Shown here one piece after another: positions 1,246 to 42,098 of a stretch of DNA of 64,000 nt. A model generated the notes under the pieces. That model saw only the letters and a program-made list of their open reading frames with translations, did not search any database and was not told the DNA's origin. The position numbers and the translations under genes are program-made. Position 1 is the stretch's first letter. Every line of letters starts with the position of its first letter. The stretch is from Eledone cirrhosa (lineage: Eukaryota), in contig OZ024745.1 of NCBI GenBank assembly GCA_964016885.1, positions 128,774,001 to 128,838,000 on the forward strand. The letters run 5' to 3'.

Positions 1246-2394
1246 TGCATAAATATAAATTTGTTTAATTTGCCTGAAGGCATAACTTGTCTCTATCTGT
1301 TTTGTTATGTCTCAATGTGCACTGGATTGATTGGTATCGACCTTAATGTACTGAAACTGTAGTGATTTTCGGATCTTGACTGAGGAGATAGGACTGTCGA
1401 TCTTTCTGTTGATTTTTTTCCGTTGTCTTTGTCCTGTGCACTCCCTATTTTGATTTATGTATATATATATATATGTTTGAAGAAATGGGAGAAAGGGTAC
1501 TCAATACATGTATTGGGGTTTCTTCATTTGCTTGAAGCCGATGATTCCTGCTATTGTTATTCATAGGTTCTTATATACACAACCATGGTTGCCTTGCACC
1601 TTGGATTATCTCCTTACTGACCACCATTGACGGAGAGTTTGCTATCCACAGGTGTAAGCTTTGCGAGATGGAATGGCTCCTCCAACACATCTCCCTCACC
1701 ATCCTCTAGGGGAAAATGCCTTCGCTAATCTGTCTGCCGGGACTGCGGGATGGCCAGCATGTAGGCTCTGATTTGCATATAACAGTGAAAGAGAGGGAAC
1801 GTAAATGCACACATGTACTTGATAAGATAAAAAAGTTGAGAAGAATGAAAATTTTATATTCATTGTTGTCATTAGTTTACTTATTCACATATTTATTTCA
1901 ACATTTTGTTGTTTGAACAACGACAGTTATCAAGAAACGCTGATTAGTGATGCCATGATTCATCAACTGGGCATGGGTATATTCTCAGTCTGTCTTCTTT
2001 TGCAATCTCATACGACTGTTTGCATCAATCCTGCGCCATCCTGTACATCTGTTGCTCAATAAAAACATTTAAAGCTACCCATTACCCACCTACATGTACA
2101 CATCATTCACTGACACACAAGTCAGTGGGTCTCTCTCTCTCACTGTGTATAGACACACACACACAAACATATATATATATACACACTAACCTAAACAAAA
2201 ACGCAAAAAAATGTCTATAACCCTTCCTTTCTTCCTTCTGTTCTTACCCCCTCCTCTAGGCCTCTGGGTCATGTAGCTGGTTTGTATGTCTGTAAGTTGA
2301 TCTCTGTGTGACTTTCAATACATTGCCACCACTATCCAATCGGGGTAACCACAGTTAGTTAGGTACTCAATACATTGGTACAGTGTACACATGC

Positions 2395-2572
2395 ACTGTA
2401 AGGTGGTCACGAGAAAGAGCACCCAGTCCACACTGTAAATGGGGTTAGAGTTGGGGGAGGGAGCATCATCCAGCTGTAGAAACCAAGCCCAAATCAGTTC
2501 TGTGTGAGGAAAACATGGTTGACTCACAATGGGACAGCTCATCTAACCCTGCTACTGTGGAAAATGGACGTT
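2395..2572 (+). mobile_element. RTE LINE 3' UTR fragment
   Basis: gcacccagtccacactgtaaat...catccagctgtagaaacc...ggaaaatggacgtt matches the 3' UTR of the RTE copies at 21313-22133. Confidence 0.7.
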
Positions 2573-2892
2573 CATCATCATCATTTTACGTCTGCTTTTC
2601 CCTGCTTGCAAGGGTGGGACGAGAACTGGTTCTGGCTTGATTTCTACAGGTGGGTGCCCTTCCTAACACCAACCTCATTTACAGTGAGTGTTGGGTGCTT
2701 TTTTGCCATGGCACCTCCACGACCACCTTGTAGTGGAATGATAGGGACCCCAGTCCCTATCATCTCATTTCTACAGCTGAGTAAACTGGAGCAATGTGAA
2801 ATAAAGTGTCTTGCTCAAGGAAACAACACATCACCTGAACTCACAACCTTTCGATTGCAGGGCCAATGCTCTAACCACTAAGCCATGTGCCC
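2573..2892 (-). mobile_element. tRNA-derived CORE-type SINE with RTE tail (family A)
   Basis: Minus strand: A box TGGCTTAGTGG, partial B box, MIR-CORE-like ccttgagcaagacactttatttcacattgctccagtttactcagctgtagaaatgag, RTE 3' end and (GAT)n tail. Confidence 0.88.
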
Positions 2893-2896
2893 CTAC

Positions 2897-2935
<39 letters not shown>

Positions 2936-3422
2936 GTGTATCAAGGATCATTTGGGAATTATATACCGGGCAGATGAATGAATGAATAAATAATTTGTTG
3001 CAATGTTAAGTATTGAGGTAGTTTTTTTTTTTTTCTGGTGGTTTCAAGTTCTAAGTTGTGGGCTGCACTGGTGGTAGTAGTGGTTGAAAGAGATGCCAAT
3101 ATGGCAGTGAGGTATTTGAATAAAGTGGGTGATTCAGAGAACCAGGAAGGGTACTTGTTTATTTGTTTCTAAACTGATTTTACTTTTAGTCTTGTGTGTG
3201 AAAATGTGTGTAAGATACTGTATTCTATCCTGGGTGTTTTTCTTTGCCCCCCCCCCCCCCCCCTTCTCTCTCTCTCTCTGTCTCTCTCTCTCTCTCTCTC
3301 ATTTTCTAACCCATTAACTCAAATTTGCAGTTAAATAAAACATGTGTGCACTAAAAGAAAATATTGCTGGGAAATTTATTTTATGTTTTGAGAGATTTCA
3401 AGTTTGAATTCATATATATATA

Positions 3423-3489
<67 letters not shown>

Positions 3490-3795
3490 CGCATAAAACT
3501 TAAACAAACAGGACCACCAGCACACACACACACACACATACCTCCATGCCTATAGCCCTGTATAATGTAAAGAAAAGGAAGAAATATATTTTAGAATCTT
3601 GGTAACTCACTTTATTATTTTAATAATAATGATAACAATAATAAGTAATTTCTTAATTTGGCATGAATAATAATAATAATAATAATAATGATAATAATAA
3701 TGAAAATAAAATTATTATTGTTATCATTATTAATATTATTCTTATGTTTATTTCTTTTGATGATGCTGAAGGCAAATTGTTTTTGGTGGAAGACA

Positions 3796-3843
<48 letters not shown>

Positions 3844-3934
3844 CTGTATACAGGCTTAATTGATTTGACCCTAGTACATAGTAGTACTGTTTGTTTTGTT
3901 TTTGTTGTTCCACCAGAAGACTGTAATGGCAATC

Positions 3935-4518
3935 ATAATGTTTTCTGATTTCGGCACAAGGTTAACAGTTTTGAAGGAGGGGCAAAGTTGATTAAATCCA
4001 CCCCAGTGCATTACTGGTACTTTATTTTATTGAACTCGCAAGGATGAAAAGCAAAGCTAACCTCGGCGGGATTTGAACTCACAACATAGAGGGCCGTATC
4101 TCTATGCTGCAAACAAAGCATGGCGTCCGATCCTCTACTGATACTGCCAATCCACCACCTTAATAATTGCTTCTACTTTTACCACAAGGCCAGCAATTAC
4201 CCCAGTGCATTACTGGTACTGACCTTCGTAAGGATGAAAGCCAAAGCAACTTTAGCAGGATTTGAACTCGGCAACAAAGCACGTCGCCCAATGCCATACA
4301 GATACTGCTAATTCACACCCTTCTATAATAATTGTTTCTACTTTTGGCACAAGGCCAGCAATTACCCCAGTACATTACTGGTACTTTATTTTATCGACTC
4401 CGTAAGGATGAAAGGCAAAGTTAACCTCAGCGGGATTCGAACTCAGAATGGCCAGCACCGTAACTCGATGCGTCAAAGCATAGCGTGTCCGACCCTCTAC
4501 CGATACTGCCAATCCACC
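3935..4518 (-). mobile_element. Three tandem tRNA-derived SINE copies (family B)
   Basis: Copies at about 3935-4160, 4161-4316 and 4326-4518. Head ggtggattggcagtatcggtagag, B box gagttcaaatcc, central tttgcctttcatccttacggggtcgataaaataaagtaccag, (ATT) tail. Confidence 0.85.
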
Positions 4519-4631
4519 AATGATTTCTTATATTGGTCACAAAGACACTACAGGACACTGTTACCAACCCAGCCAAAACTGGCTCTGGTTCTATGAAATA
4601 TAACCACCCATTTTAAAGGATTCTGATTTAA

Positions 4632-4838
4632 CCCTTTAGTTACAAACCCAGCCAAAACCACCCTTTTTAAAAGGGTTCCTATTTAAATTAAAATCTTTCC
4701 AACATAATTTTATATAAGAACCTTACATTAAGTTACTATCTTAGTAATGAAGTAATTAATAATTTTAGGAAATCCCTCAAAATTCTCTGTTAATTAATTG
4801 AATTAGTGTAGTTCATTAGAAATCTGGTCATGAAAGGG
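4632..4838. mobile_element. piggyBac-like MITE (family P2)
   Basis: TTAA|CCCTTT...AAAGGG|TTAA; related copies at about 11208-11480, 13317-13541 and 41430-41640. Confidence 0.7.
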
Positions 4839-5367
4839 TTAACTATGTGTTTGTATGTGTTGTGGAACTTAAACAATTCCATTCTATGTCCCTTTTGTCA
4901 TTGCTTGTAGATGGGATGATTTGGTTGGGTACAGTAGCATGTCCAGGTCAGTCCCTTCTTTTCTCATTTACATAACTGAAACATTTTCTATTTTTTTTTT
5001 CTTATCCCTTTTTCTACTGTTTCACATCCATTTTTGTTTGTTCGTTTGTTTGTTTGTGTTTTTTCTTTGGTGCTTGCATGGGCGGGATGATATGTCTGGT
5101 GAAACATTTATTTTTCCAGCTGGATACCATTCCAACTGTTAATCATTCAACCCTGAATTTAGGGGAGTAGCTCCTTTCATATCAGTCAAGCAAACTGGGA
5201 CATGTAGAGTTGTCTGCCTTGTTTAGGGGACACACTATGATTGGTTGTAATGTGGTGTGGCGCAAGTTGTAACCACCAGAAAGGGCAACCTTTACTGGTC
5301 ATTGTGTTTCCACACACACACACACATACATACATACACACACACACACACATACATACACACACAC

Positions 5368-8340: not shown

Positions 8341-8698
8341 GACTGAGGATTATTATTGGAGATTTACTTTCACTATTGCCAGAAAAACCCTTCACAGTCA
8401 AAGTTTGACTGTTTTGATCAGAATTGACTTGAGACTAAACTTCACAACTATTACCACTACATTCTTCTGCCACACCAGCTTTATTAATTAACTAATTAAT
8501 TATTTCACTAATTAATTCCAGCCACTATGTTTAGCTGATGATGCAGAAGGAGTGTTGTTGTTCAATTTGTGTGGATATTGAATTTACTTCCAGAATTTGG
8601 AATATGGATGTATCTAAGGTGATTGTATGAGGATATGGGTTATGTCTGGACATTTATATATAGTTTGTGTGTGGACAGGCATTTATATATATATATAT

Positions 8699-9019: not shown

Positions 9020-9067
<48 letters not shown>

Positions 9068-9112
9068 CTAAATATTAATAAATGAAGACATTCACATAAT
9101 CAAAATATATGA

Positions 9113-9172
9113 TTTATTATATATATTTCGGAGGTACTGTGCTGTTTTTTCAGTACGTCCTCATCAGATAAA
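9113..9172 (-). ncRNA. Type I hammerhead ribozyme
   Basis: Minus strand: tttat-CTGATGA-ggacgtactg...cagtacctcc-GAAA-tatatata^ataaa. Confidence 0.8.
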
Positions 9173-9282
9173 ATGCATGAATTGATGTATGACATACCTC
9201 AACTGTCTTGATGATTCAATTCCAGTAATGGCAGAATTGAACCATCAAGACAGTTGAGGTATGTCATACATCAATTCATGTA

Positions 9283-9344
9283 TTTTATCTGATGAGGACG
9301 TATTTAAAAAACAGCACAGTACCTTCAAAATATATATAATAAAA
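9283..9344 (+). ncRNA. Degenerate type I hammerhead (GAAA->AAAA)
   Basis: ttttat-CTGATGA...c-AAAA-tatatata-ataaaa; mirror copy of 9113-9172. Confidence 0.65.
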
Positions 9345-9487
9345 CATATATTTTGATTATGTGAACATCTTCATTTATTAATATTTCAAATAATATTAAT
9401 AACTCCAGAAAACTTCATTGTAGAGTGCTTTTAATCTATTGTAAAACTATATTCATTGAGTAATCAATGAACCTTATTAACCTTTGG

Positions 9488-9554
<67 letters not shown>

Positions 9555-9811
9555 TTGTGTGTGTGTGGATGGGCGTCTATATATATATATAAAGTGTGTA
9601 TACGTACATACATATATGTATACAGACGTACACTAGTATGTATATATATATATATATATACATACATACATGCACACACATATATATATGTACGTATGGA
9701 TTTACCGAATATTTATTATAATGCTCGGTTTGTTTGTAAACAAACATCCCGAATTACGCCGTACAGTGTTTAGCAACCATCGTTGCCCTTTTGTTCAACA
9801 CTGACAAAGGA

Positions 9812-9854
9812 ACGATGTACTAGTTTCAAGCTCATTAGCTATCGTCAGCATCGT
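9812..9854 (-). ncRNA. Minimal type I hammerhead ribozyme
   Basis: Minus strand: acgatg-CTGACGA-t-agct-aatg-agct-t-GAAA-ctagta^catcgt; 6 bp stem I and palindromic ACUAGU stem III. Confidence 0.8.
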
Positions 9855-9972
9855 ATACCTTCCTGCCAGATGATTGAACGTCTGAAAGTATATACTTTCC
9901 TTATGTATATTAACGGCTGAGTAGCCTAATTTGCATATCGAGTGAGTTAATCGGCCGGGCGCACCGAAAACG

Positions 9973-10165
9973 ATAAATGGAAAAAATGAAACAAAATTTT
10001 ATTTCTCACTCTTAGTACGGCTGCTACTTAAATATAAATATGTATACGTACATACATATATGTATACTGTACGTCTGTATACATATATGTATGTATGTAT
10101 AGACACTTATATTTAAGTAACAGCCGTACTAAGAGTGAGAAATGAAATTTCGTTTAATTTTTTCC

Positions 10166-10171
<6 letters not shown>
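9973..10171. repeat. Fold-back palindrome (~95 bp arms)
   Basis: 9973-10067 versus 10077-10171, e.g. tctcactcttagtacggctg / cagccgtactaagagtgaga. Confidence 0.9.
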
Positions 10172-10212
<41 letters not shown>

Positions 10213-20307: not shown

Positions 20308-21312
20308 TTTATTATTGCCCTTCAGGCTATAACAGAGGAGTTCAAGACCGGCTGCCCATGGGAACTCCTATACGCAGATGATCTAACGCTCATAGCTGAA
20401 TCAATGGCTGAACTAGAGAAGAAATTCCAAACATGGAAGCATGGCTTAGAATCAAAAGGCCTTAAAATTAACCTGTCTAAGACTAAAGTTCTAGTTTGTA
20501 GGAAGGAAAATAGGGCACCGGTCCCATCCGGGAAATGGCCATGCTGAGTGTGTAGGAAAGGAGTAGGCAGAAACTCCATTTTATGTCCCAAATGCAAAGT
20601 ATGGGTGCATAAAAGATGTAGTGGGATCACAGGTAAGCTAACTAAGAATATAGATTTTATATGTGGCTGGTGCGCTGGTACAATAAGTAGCAACAAATGC
20701 CCACAGAATACTAGCTCATTCCATAGCACAGATCGTTCTATAGAAATAGTGGACACCTTCCGTTACCTGGGTGACAAAATCAGCAGTGGTGGAGGGTGCT
20801 CTGAAAGTACAGTAGCTAGAGTCAGAACTGGATTGAAAAAGTTCAGAGAGCTTATACCACTATTAGCCACTAAAGGGTTTTCTCTAAAAATGAAAGGCAG
20901 GCTGTATGATGCCTTCATACGAACAGCAATGTTACATGACAGTGAGACCTGGGCATTGTGTGCAGAGGATATACGCAGACTGGAGAGGAACGAAGCTTGC
21001 ATGCTCCGTTGGATGTGTAATAGTAATATACGTGACCGGCAAAGCATAAATGAACTAAGGGAGAAATTAGGAATAAGAGGGATCAGGTGCTGTTTACTCG
21101 AGAGAAGACTACGTTGGTATGGTCATGTGATGCGCATGAAAGACGACAGCTGTATAAAAAAGTGCAGGGCAATAAAAATAGACGGTAGCCACGGAGTAGG
21201 CAGACCCAGAAAAACCTGGGACGACTTGATAAATTCCGACCTCTCCAAGACAATGTCACTAGACCGAGATCTTTGGCGCTACGCAGTAATACAGAAGACC
21301 CGCCTTGCCTAA
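20308..21312 (+). pseudogene. RTE-clade reverse transcriptase C-terminal ORF remnant
   Basis: In frame FIIALQAITEEFKTGCPWELLYADDL...GLKINLSKTK, stop at 20545-20547, then ...FRYLG...SETW...RRLRWYGHVMR...GRPRKTW...DRDLWR, which are RTE hallmarks. Confidence 0.93.
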
Positions 21313-41871: not shown

Positions 41872-42098
41872 GAAGGTGCATGGCTTAGTGGTGATAGCAT
41901 TGGGCTTGCAATCGAAAGGTTGTGAGTTCAATTCTCAGACCGGGTGATGTGTTGTTTCCTTGAGCAAGACACTTTATTTCACATTGTTCCAGTTTACTCA
42001 GCTGTAGAAATGAGTTGTGGCATCACCTGTGCCAAGCTGTATCGGCCATTGCCTTTCCCTTGGCCATCATCGGTGGCGTGGAGAGGGGAGGCTGGTAC
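41872..42098 (+). mobile_element. CORE-type SINE (family A head, different tail)
   Basis: Head and CORE near-identical to family A; diverges after aaatgag. Confidence 0.82.

What the first reader, a model, noticed from the sequence alone, without database searches (positions are those of the whole stretch)
9588..10171. ~444 bp monomer with one hammerhead, a partial direct repeat and a terminal inversion
Seen: tgtatacgtacatacatatatgtatac occurs at 9597 and 10041 (spacing 444). A compact hammerhead lies between them (9812-9854, -), and a ~95 bp-arm palindrome (9973-10171) closes the unit. The interior is CpG-rich. Inference: a slightly-more-than-unit-length copy, as expected from reverse transcription of a circular or tandem RNA (retrozyme-like), and probably young.
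Basis: partly seen in the sequence, partly recalled or inferred. Interest (0 to 1): 0.72.

Follow-up and report, generated by a model that had tools for sequence, protein, structure and literature searches.

The report
Hammerhead retrozyme repeat, Penelope-style insertion
This is one young copy of a very abundant ~425-base repeat that carries a hammerhead-type motif predicted to cut its own RNA, and it was likely pasted into a TA microsatellite by Penelope-like retroelement machinery; the kind is already known from other animals.

Summary
All four observed features are real: the exact 27-nt direct repeat 444 nt apart, the hammerhead-like motif on the minus strand, the 95-nt-arm palindrome and the CpG richness.

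The locus is one copy of a repeat family. The genome holds 24,916 exact hits to the hammerhead core pattern, often in tandem arrays of ~420-500 bp units.

The motif has a full type I hammerhead core and a three-part helix I, with both-sided changes at two pairs. It has a U.U at the base of helix II and a 1-2 bp helix III with a palindromic loop. Both oddities are published for axolotl retrozyme hammerheads. Rfam does not call the window copy, and cleavage is untested.

The "terminal inversion" is not part of the monomer. It is an adjacent inverted 5'-truncated copy. Together with the partial tandem and the (TA)n flanks, this is the published insertion architecture of Penelope-like elements.

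In all 18 two-armed insertions whose ends I could classify, one arm ends at unit ~370 and the other at unit 424. A 54-nt "tail" therefore sits at one end only.

This locus has a single hammerhead, so it should not yield a 444-nt circle itself. Verdict: a new member of the known non-LTR retrozyme kind, likely in a mollusc.

The scan had notes on other hammerhead families in this genome, none on this one.

The parts
9584..9974 (-). Main body, unit positions 1-370 in hammerhead sense (read 9974->9584). Its 3' end (T1, ...CACACTTTATA) abuts a short (TA) run; the exact boundary is ambiguous within about 9579-9593.
   Evidence: BLAST of the natural 424-nt unit (L017:2350-2773) onto the locus; sequence
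9975..10091 (-). Partial upstream unit (unit 305-424) in tandem with the main body. It gives the 1.16-unit length and the 444-nt direct repeat (a pLTR-like partial tandem).
9801..9869 (-). Extended type I hammerhead-like motif. Helix I has three parts (6 bp, 2-nt bulge, 4 bp, 4/2-nt internal loop, 5 bp). Then come core CUGACGA, helix II of 4 bp with loop AAUG, GAA, helix III A-[CUAG]-U, and A17.
   Evidence: sequence; descriptor; pair counts on 72 variants
9817..9818 (-). Predicted self-cleavage site (GUA^C), between 9818 and 9817.
   Evidence: position of H17 in the motif; not tested
9597..9623 (+). First copy of the exact 27-nt direct repeat, inside the TA/CA-rich low-complexity part of the unit (unit ~283-370).
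10041..10067 (+). Second copy of the exact 27-nt direct repeat.
10077..10171 (+). Inverted 5'-truncated copy (right arm of the palindrome). In hammerhead sense it runs 10077->10171, covers about unit 330-424 including the 54-nt tail, and ends at T2 (...TTTTTTCCATTT) next to (AT)n. BLAST places the inverted copy at 10025-10169 (unit 279-424).
9973..10067 (+). Left arm of the palindrome; part of the main body (unit ~330-424 on the minus strand).
9488..9550 (.). (TA)n tract on the T1 side. It is separated from the element by AAATATT(GT)nGGATGGGCGTC and a short (TA) run at about 9579-9591.
10172..10210 (.). (AT)n tract directly abutting the T2 end.

Best explanation
Window 9584-10171 is a 1.16-unit copy, plus an adjacent inverted 5'-truncated piece, of a ~424-bp non-coding repeat whose units each carry a type I hammerhead-like motif, and it was likely inserted into a (TA)n tract by target-primed reverse transcription using Penelope-like-element (PLE) machinery, i.e. 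it is a non-LTR retrozyme.

Shown:
- The family is very abundant and partly tandem.
- The motif has the full hammerhead core.
- Helix I keeps pairing across subfamilies.
- Insertions are 5'-truncated arrays, often in head-to-head pairs. Their 3' ends point outward and stop at two sites (T1 at unit ~370, T2 at unit 424) that abut (TA)n.
- PLEs with RT and GIY-YIG domains are very abundant in the same genome.

Inferred:
- Arrays would be transcribed in hammerhead sense.
- The hammerheads, probably acting as dimers through the self-complementary ACUAGU of helix III, would cut the transcript into unit-length RNAs, and a host ligase would circularise them.
- A PLE enzyme would nick (TA)n and prime cDNA synthesis at the two UA-rich sites of a multimeric or circular template. 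This would give tandem copies with variable 5' starts, an inverted second arm, and the 54-nt tail at one end only.

The window copy has one hammerhead, so it is most likely a dead-end offspring copy rather than a source of circles.
For: Abundance and tandem arrangement:
- 24,916 exact genome hits to CTGANGATAGCTAANNAGCTTGAAACTAGTA, against 0 for the reversed control. Many lie 420-500 bp apart.
- A clean array of four 424-426 bp units is seen.

Hammerhead:
- The core, all three helices and a GUA^C site are present.
- There is one descriptor hit in the window and 0 in 300 random windows.
- On 72 distinct variants, 95.9% of 1512 pair cells are paired, against 32.9-45.0% when the partners are slid. 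Helix I pair 2.3/1.3 occurs as G.U 32, U.G 24, A-U 11, C-G 1, unpaired 4. Pair 14/68 occurs as A-U 51, U.G 5, unpaired 16.
- In the first 100 of 23,987 genome hits I tallied U.G 48, G.U 38, A-U 12 and U/U 2 at pair 2.3/1.3.
- In contigs of two runs, variants at >=10% within 9812-9854 fall only in loop 2 (9833, 9834), at N7 (9844) and at the 1.3/2.3 pair (9815, 9851).
- Rfam Hammerhead_HH9 aligns a CUGAUGA subfamily copy end to end, at 18.5 bits and E 0.02, below its threshold.
- Both oddities are published for retrozyme hammerheads that cleave in vitro, most efficiently as dimers: a U.U at the base of helix II, and a 1-bp helix III with a palindromic tetraloop (PMC7229834, Results read).
- The circular fold of the unit gives z = -5.9.

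PLE-style insertion:
- 29 of 62 insertions sampled by position are head-to-head (-,+), and none shows the opposite (+,-) order alone.
- 5' starts are scattered over the unit.
- 43 of 53 T1/T2 ends have (TA)>=4 within 20 nt.
- In all 18 two-armed insertions with both ends classifiable, one arm ends at T1 and the other at T2 (curated by hand).
- This matches the published PLE features: 5' truncation, partial tandems, an adjacent inverted 5'-truncated copy, a tail at one end, and (TA)n targets (PMC8557442, passages read).

PLEs in the genome:
- 10,595 GIY-YIG candidates were found; all 150 scored ones are above the cut-off.
- Open reading frames carry RVT_1 plus a C-terminal GIY-YIG domain.
- Three copies carry a minimal hammerhead ~380-400 nt downstream with the same U.U and 1-bp/palindromic-loop features.
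Against: - No Rfam hammerhead model matches the window copy even at E<=10.
- The HH9 hit on a relative is far below its gathering score (18.5 against 52 bits).
- Covariation rests on two pairs and probably few events. The copies are closely related, so the shuffle control overstates support. 16 of 72 variants break pair 14/68.
- Core conservation in my variant set follows from how the instances were picked (<=3 changes in the core).
- The whole unit is young and conserved, so conservation alone does not show selection.
- No RNA data exist here: transcription, cleavage and circles are all untested.
- No autonomous PLE sharing sequence with the unit was found among 36 PLE loci.
- Tandem and inverted arrangements are also made by PLEs that use linear RNA, so a circular template is not required.
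Confidence: 0.7

Rival explanations
1. The repeat is a non-autonomous Penelope-like or SINE-like retroelement, or a satellite, in which the hammerhead-like motif is an inactive relic or a chance match. It would spread as ordinary linear RNA, and no self-cleavage or circular RNA would be involved.
For: Rfam does not recognise the window copy. Helix III is only 1-2 bp and 10.1/11.1 is U.U. PLEs produce tandem and inverted insertions without any need for circles (PMC8557442, passages read). Only two pairs covary.
Against: The full core is kept exactly in 24,916 copies. Common variants avoid the core and helix II. Helix I changes on both sides in whole subfamilies, with only 2 of 100 mismatched intermediates. 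The same two oddities occur in retrozyme hammerheads that do cleave (PMC7229834). A chance match of this quality was not seen in 300 random windows.
Confidence: 0.18
2. A DNA-level origin: a foldback, MITE or Helitron/Helentron-type element or a satellite. Its palindrome and partial repeat would arise from replication slippage or hairpin formation at the TA-rich low-complexity segment.
For: The palindrome centre and the direct repeat lie in quasi-palindromic TA/CA-rich sequence. (TA)n tracts are frequent in this window. From recall, Helitron-type elements prefer AT targets and can carry tandem repeats.
Against: The junction between arms is not confined to the low-complexity part. It occurs at unit 8/35, 76/76, 223/223, 97/240 and other positions. 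Arms always point outward with defined 3' ends and truncated 5' ends, which is a retrotransposition signature. No terminal inverted repeats or Helitron ends are seen at the outer boundaries. The strict T1/T2 pairing is not predicted by slippage.
Confidence: 0.07
3. One reading: this very locus is transcribed and yields a ~444-nt circular RNA joined at 9817/9818.
For: The unit spacing of 444 nt and a hammerhead-like site are present.
Against: Only one hammerhead motif lies in the locus and in the whole window. One cut cannot release a unit-length RNA. The inverted arm lacks the motif.
Confidence: 0.05

Closest known systems
Metazoan non-LTR retrozymes (Cervera & de la Pena 2020, PMC7229834; for example the Mytilus galloprovincialis 350-390 bp repeats, ~5000 hammerheads)
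   Same: Non-coding tandem repeats of 150-450 bp with low GC, one type I hammerhead per unit, thousands of copies, co-existence with PLEs, and a highly self-paired predicted circle.
   Different: Unit sequence and hammerhead sequence are specific to this genome. There are about 25,000 motif copies. RNA circles were not examined here. The head-to-head arms, the two fixed 3' ends and the (TA)n target are not described in the parts of that paper I read.
Amphibian satellite / axolotl retrozyme hammerheads HHR_Amex1 and HHR_Amex2 (PMC7229834)
   Same: Helix III is a single A-U pair capped by a palindromic tetraloop (here CUAG), as in Amex1. There is a U.U mismatch at the base of helix II, as in Amex2. 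This predicts weak activity as a monomer and better activity as a dimer.
   Different: A different animal group (nearest protein clusters are molluscan), a unit of 424 bp instead of 330-350 bp, and no shared sequence tested.
Penelope-like elements and their pLTR hammerheads (Craig et al. 2021, PMC8557442; Li, Clavereau & Pollet 2026, bioRxiv 10.64898/2026.07.22.740005)
   Same: 5' truncation, partial tandems, an adjacent inverted 5'-truncated copy, a tail at one end only, and insertion in (TA)n. PLEs of this genome carry minimal hammerheads with the same U.U and 1-bp helix III.
   Different: No RT or endonuclease ORF. The tail is 54 nt against the published 30-40 bp. No sequence is shared with the 36 PLE loci I examined, so the autonomous partner is unknown.
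Plant LTR retrozymes (Cervera et al. 2016, PMC4918200; abstract and search listing only)
   Same: Non-autonomous, hammerhead-bearing, thought to spread through circular RNA.
   Different: As summarised in PMC7229834, plant elements have type III hammerheads inside ~350-bp LTRs, a PBS, a PPT and 4-bp target duplications. None of these applies here.

Membership tests
Hammerhead ribozyme, type I | Conserved core: C3 U4 G5 A6 N7 G8 A9, G12 A13 A14, A15.1-U16.1, H17 | tested here: met
   CUGACGA ... GAA A..U A^C on the minus strand 9848-9818. The core is exact in 24,916 genome copies.
Hammerhead ribozyme, type I | Three helices around the core, with helix I open and helices II and III closed by loops | tested here: met
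   Helix I is 5+4+6 bp with an internal loop and a bulge. Helix II is 4 bp plus a U.U. Helix III is 1-2 bp. 95.9% of cells are paired on 72 variants, and two pairs change on both sides. Helix III is minimal.
Hammerhead ribozyme, type I | Recognised by curated covariance models (Rfam clan CL00010) | tested here: inconclusive
   No hit for the window copy at E<=10. A subfamily copy gives Hammerhead_HH9 at 18.5 bits and E 0.02, against a gathering score of 52.
Hammerhead ribozyme, type I | Site-specific self-cleavage | not testable with these tools
   Needs in vitro transcription of monomer and dimer constructs.
Non-LTR (metazoan) retrozyme | Tandem repeats of about 150-450 bp with a type I hammerhead in each unit | tested here: met
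   Arrays with 420-500 bp spacing of the motif. Some subfamily units reach ~500 bp.
Non-LTR (metazoan) retrozyme | No LTR, PBS, PPT or coding capacity; GC below 50% | tested here: met
   GC is 37.6%. The unit is 424 nt with no long terminal repeats, and no ORF of 150 aa or more overlaps 9584-10171. PBS and PPT were not searched for explicitly.
Non-LTR (metazoan) retrozyme | Expressed as unit-length linear and circular RNA | not testable with these tools
   No listed run is on record as RNA.
Non-LTR (metazoan) retrozyme | Co-existence with autonomous PLEs | tested here: met
   10,595 GIY-YIG candidates; ORFs with RVT_1 plus GIY-YIG.
Penelope-like-element insertion architecture | 5' truncation, partial tandem, adjacent inverted 5'-truncated copy, tail at one end, microsatellite target | tested here: met
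   29 of 62 insertions are head-to-head. 5' starts are scattered. All 18 classifiable pairs are T1/T2. (TA)n abuts 43 of 53 T1/T2 ends.
Penelope-like element (autonomous) | ORF with PLE reverse transcriptase and GIY-YIG endonuclease | tested here: not met
   No ORF in the unit. It can only be a non-autonomous passenger.
Plant LTR retrozyme | Type III hammerheads in LTRs, PBS, PPT, 4-bp TSD | tested here: not met
   The hammerhead is type I. There are no LTRs, and no target duplication can be discerned in (TA)n.

The most novel reading that the evidence does not exclude
The 25,000-copy family records how Penelope-like enzymes integrate a retrozyme. Both ends of a broken (TA)n target prime cDNA synthesis on one multimeric or circular hammerhead RNA, at two UA-rich sites 54 nt apart. 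Every two-armed insertion therefore carries the 54-nt tail on exactly one arm. That would explain the so far unexplained 'tail at one end' and inverted-copy structure of PLE insertions, and would give direct structural proof that animal retrozymes are mobilised by PLEs.
Probability: 0.3. Interest if true: 0.6.

Novelty: new member of a known kind. Interest (0 to 1): 0.4.

Why it matters
Hammerhead-bearing tandem repeats that give small circular RNAs are an established class in animals. Another family is therefore not surprising in itself.

What this family adds is scale and regularity. It has about 25,000 young copies with readable junctions. They show Penelope-style head-to-head arms, two fixed 3' ends in (TA)n, and a tail on one arm only. 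If the rule holds genome-wide, it supports the proposal that PLEs mobilise retrozymes on structural rather than phylogenetic grounds. It also offers a natural data set for working out the still undefined PLE integration steps.

Tried and rejected
- Rfam at the gathering score and at E<=10 on 901 nt and on 91 nt: no hammerhead family for the window copy. The many miRNA-like hits come from the palindrome and the TA-rich sequence and were set aside.
- Expression: no RNA holder was listed. The four runs I laid are contigs of unknown kind and show no starts, ends or informative joints.
- A DNA search of the genome with a diverged copy (L013:60-330) found nothing, presumably because its words are masked as too common.
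I replaced it with a gapped pattern.
- Autonomous partner: BLAST of the unit against 30 GIY-YIG loci found only one nearby family copy (L075). Against 6 long-ORF PLE loci it found only a 19-nt chance match.
- Target-site duplication: none can be discerned in (TA)n. The resemblance of the flanks (...GTGTGGAYRGGCRTYTATATA at 9565 and 10260) is not a duplication made by this insertion, because a third copy lies at 8671.
- The single T2/T2 pair in the mixed sample (C2:106568504) is not a real end. The sequence there continues into the next unit.
- The motif-based end caller made errors: a false anchor in the unit body and a false 'cont' call. I curated the end calls by hand.
- Earlier notes of the scan: none on this family by sequence or by place.
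- Twin priming as in LINE-1, and snap-back synthesis, were both considered for the inverted arm. Neither alone explains both the equal (223/223, 355/355, 76/76) and the unequal (97/240, 242/3) junctions, so the step remains open.

Full report
**Observation**

- The 27-nt string occurs exactly at 9597 and 10041, 444 nt apart. A 2-mismatch inverted copy lies at 10077-10103, and none is expected by chance.
- The palindrome has 95-nt arms, 9973-10067 and 10077-10171, that are 92% complementary with a 9-nt spacer.
- The interior has CpG observed/expected of 1.53, against 0.44 for the window.
- On the minus strand, 9854->9812 reads CGAUG-CUGACGA-U-AGCU-AAUG-AGCU-U-GAA-A-CUAG-U-A^CAUCG. That is a complete type I hammerhead core with the cut predicted between 9818 and 9817.
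- A descriptor I wrote requires a 5-bp helix I, CUGANGA, a helix II of at least 4 bp, GAAA, A..UH, and the helix I return. It finds this one site in the window and none in 300 first-order Markov random windows.
- Against this, Rfam reports no hammerhead family for the window copy at its curated threshold or at E<=10 in narrow searches.

**A large family**

- The 283-nt unique interior finds full-length copies at 96-98% identity on many contigs of the 3.0-Gb genome, three of them 425-426 bp apart.
- The core pattern CTGANGATAGCTAANNAGCTTGAAACTAGTA has 12,829 + 12,087 exact hits, and the reversed control has 0. Runs of hits are spaced 420-500 bp apart.
- One array shows four clean 424-426 bp units. 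I took one natural unit from it as the coordinate frame, in hammerhead sense (L017:2350-2773):
  - position 1 = ATCGTTTTCGG;
  - the hammerhead is at about 105-175, with the cut at 157/158;
  - a TA/CA-rich quasi-palindromic segment is at about 283-370;
  - position 424 = ...TTTTCC(A/G)TTT.
- The window holds a single copy.
- The copy departs from the >=60% majority of 37 relatives at 5 of 283 positions and keeps 18 CpGs, so it is young.
- The nearest protein clusters for a retroelement ORF elsewhere in the window are molluscan.

**Is the hammerhead real?**

It has 5 bp next to the core, an internal loop (UAUA / UU), 4 bp, a 2-nt bulge and 6 more bp, spanning window 9801-9869.
- On 72 distinct variants, 95.9% of 1512 pair cells are standard pairs, against 32.9-45.0% when the partners are slid. 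These 72 were kept from 81 distinct sequences among 137 instances; I dropped 9 that had more than 14 differences. Instances were picked by <=3 changes in the 31-nt core, so core conservation in this set follows from the selection.
- Two helix I pairs change on both sides. Pair 2.3/1.3 occurs as G.U 32, U.G 24, A-U 11, C-G 1, unpaired 4. Pair 14/68 occurs as A-U 51, U.G 5, unpaired 16.
- In the first 100 of 23,987 genome hits to a pattern left open at both positions, I counted U.G 48, G.U 38, A-U 12 and U/U 2. The changes are subfamily-wide, so they represent few events. This is supportive, not strong.
- In contigs of two sequencing runs, variants at 10% or more inside 9812-9854 fall only in loop 2 (9833, 9834), at the free core position N7 (9844) and at the 1.3/2.3 pair (9815, 9851).
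- Subfamilies that are only 74-80% identical to the unit overall keep the hammerhead and the block upstream of it almost unchanged.
- A CUGAUGA subfamily copy is aligned end to end by Rfam Hammerhead_HH9 at 18.5 bits (E 0.02), well under its 52-bit threshold.
- The two features that look defective are both published for retrozyme hammerheads. A U.U mismatch at the base of helix II is described for HHR_Amex2. A helix III of one pair capped by a palindromic tetraloop is described for HHR_Amex1. Both cleave poorly as monomers and efficiently as dimers (PMC7229834, Results read).
- Here ACUAGU is self-complementary, so two motifs in a multimeric transcript could form a 6-bp shared helix III. This is an inference from the sequence.
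- The 424-nt unit folded as a circle has an energy of -123.6 kcal/mol, against -92.2 +/- 5.3 for 100 shuffles (z -5.9). The antisense strand gives z -4.1. Much of this comes from the low-complexity palindrome.

**What the direct repeat and the palindrome are**

Mapping the unit onto the window gives three pieces:
- minus strand, unit 1-370 (9584-9974);
- minus strand, unit 305-424 (9975-10091);
- plus strand, unit 279-424 (10025-10169).

The main body is therefore 1.16 units, which makes the 444-nt repeat. The right palindrome arm is a separate inverted copy that starts at about the same unit position as the main body and runs outward.

This is the rule in the family.
- In 62 insertions sampled purely by position (the first 21.7 Mb of contig 1), 29 have a minus arm immediately left of a plus arm. 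That means they lie head to head in hammerhead sense. None has the opposite order alone.
- 5' starts are scattered over the unit, for example 8/35, 76/76, 223/223, 97/240 and 242/3.
- 3' ends cluster at two sites. T1 is ...CATACTTATA at unit ~366-370. T2 is ...TTTTCC(A/G)TTT at unit 424, or ...TTCAACTT in one subfamily. Both run straight into (TA)n.
- In a mixed sample of 40 insertions, 53 of 64 arm ends are T1 or T2, and 43 of those 53 have (TA)>=4 within 20 nt.
- Among the 29 two-armed insertions, 18 have both ends classifiable. All 18 pair one T1 with one T2 (curated by hand). Two of the 18 look like one segmental duplicate.
- If ends were independent, about half would be mixed (my arithmetic). 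The 54 nt between T1 and T2 therefore sit on one arm only.

**Fit to Penelope-like elements**

The literature describes PLE insertions as highly 5'-truncated, organised in partial tandems (pseudo-LTRs), and often with an inverted 5'-truncated copy adjacent at the 5' end. They have a 30-40-bp 'tail' at one end only and, for Naiads, a preference for (TA)n. The mechanism is called undefined (PMC8557442, passages read).

Retrozymes were proposed to be mobilised by PLEs from a primed circular RNA (PMC7229834, Discussion read). They were recently argued, from phylogeny in vertebrates, to be non-autonomous PLE derivatives (bioRxiv 10.64898/2026.07.22.740005, Results read). A word search of that preprint found no discussion of inverted copies or target sites.

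The genome is full of PLEs.
- It has 10,595 GIY-YIG candidates; all 150 scored ones are above the Pfam cut-off.
- Long frames carry RVT_1 plus a C-terminal GIY-YIG domain. For the L126 frame, GIY-YIG scores 29.6 bits, above its cut-off, and RVT_1 scores 27.6 bits, just below its own.
- Three such copies (L080, L126, L127) carry GAAC-CUGAAGA-U-UGC-GAAA-GCA-U-GAA-A-GUAC-U-U^GUUC about 380-400 nt downstream. This minimal hammerhead has the same U.U and 1-bp/palindromic-loop design. A TA-rich tract follows about 170 nt further on.
- None of the 36 PLE loci examined shares sequence with the unit beyond one chance neighbour, so the partner is not identified.

**Mechanism, and what is inferred**

Shown: the family, the motif, the pairing, the architecture, the (TA)n context, and the PLE background.

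Inferred: transcription of arrays, self-cleavage (probably dimeric), ligation to circles, and cDNA synthesis primed from nicked (TA)n at the two UA-rich sites of a multimeric or circular template, followed by formation of the second, inverted arm.

A circular template is attractive because priming is internal and arrays start anywhere in the unit. It is not required, since PLEs make the same structures from linear RNA.

The window copy has one hammerhead. One cut cannot release a unit, so this locus is best seen as an offspring copy, not a source of circles.

**Comparison and novelty**

By the published structural definition this is a non-LTR retrozyme. Expression as circular RNA could not be tested: no RNA holder was listed, and the laid runs are contigs of unknown kind.

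It is a new family of a known kind. The part I could not find in the texts I read is the strict one-arm tail rule and the two fixed 3' ends. These rest on 18 insertions and need a genome-wide count.

Earlier notes of this scan describe other, rearranged hammerhead families and (TA)n-inserted Penelope-like repeats in the same genome. None concerns this family.

Noticed in passing
window 9055-9401: A second palindrome (168-nt arms, 92% complementary, 11-nt spacer), flanked by (TA)n. It belongs to another abundant family (680 first-look candidates; 40 scored at 94-100% identity), some copies of which also form head-to-head pairs. Each arm contains CTGATGAGGACG..., a hammerhead-core-like word. It may be one of the rearranged-hammerhead families noted elsewhere in this genome, but a look-up by sequence found no note.
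   Followed up: partly
window 8671, 9565, 10260: The motif (TG)n-GGAYRGGCRT-TTATATA occurs three times, next to (TA)n tracts. The copies differ mainly by CpG transitions. It may be the 3' end of yet another (TA)n-targeting repeat. It explains the apparent similarity of the two flanks of the element.
   Followed up: partly
L126:4304-4340(-), L127:4087-4123(-), L080:2147-2183(+): A minimal hammerhead (CUGAAGA core, 3-bp helix II with a GAAA loop and a U.U base, 1-bp helix III with a GUAC loop) lies about 380-400 nt downstream of Penelope-like RT/GIY-YIG ORFs. A TA-rich microsatellite follows about 170 nt further on.
   Followed up: partly
L128:1850-4865: Two 551-aa Penelope-like open frames lie head to head and overlap (minus 1850-3502, plus 3213-4865). 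This is an autonomous-element example of the same inverted arrangement.
   Followed up: no
L123:9203-9249(-), L128:681-727(+): Another hammerhead-like motif, with CUGAUGA, a U.U at the base of helix II and a 4-bp helix III (ACAG/CUGU), lies near Penelope-like ORFs. Its orientation relative to the ORFs is unclear.
   Followed up: no
window 20548-21312 (+): A 254-aa open frame with a PHD-like zinc-finger region and the C-terminal part of a reverse transcriptase-type retroelement protein. The nearest Atlas clusters are molluscan.
   Followed up: partly
window 41881-41938 (+): A borderline tRNA match (29.7 bits against a gathering score of 29) covering model positions 8-63 only. Possibly a tRNA-derived repeat.
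   Followed up: no
L017 (G000:C1:228128100-228128210): At the end of a four-unit array, the inverted arm reads through the T2 site for 31 nt into the next unit. It then repeats ATTTCATTTTTTCCATTT before the (AT)n tract. This looks like a template slip at the T2 site.
   Followed up: no
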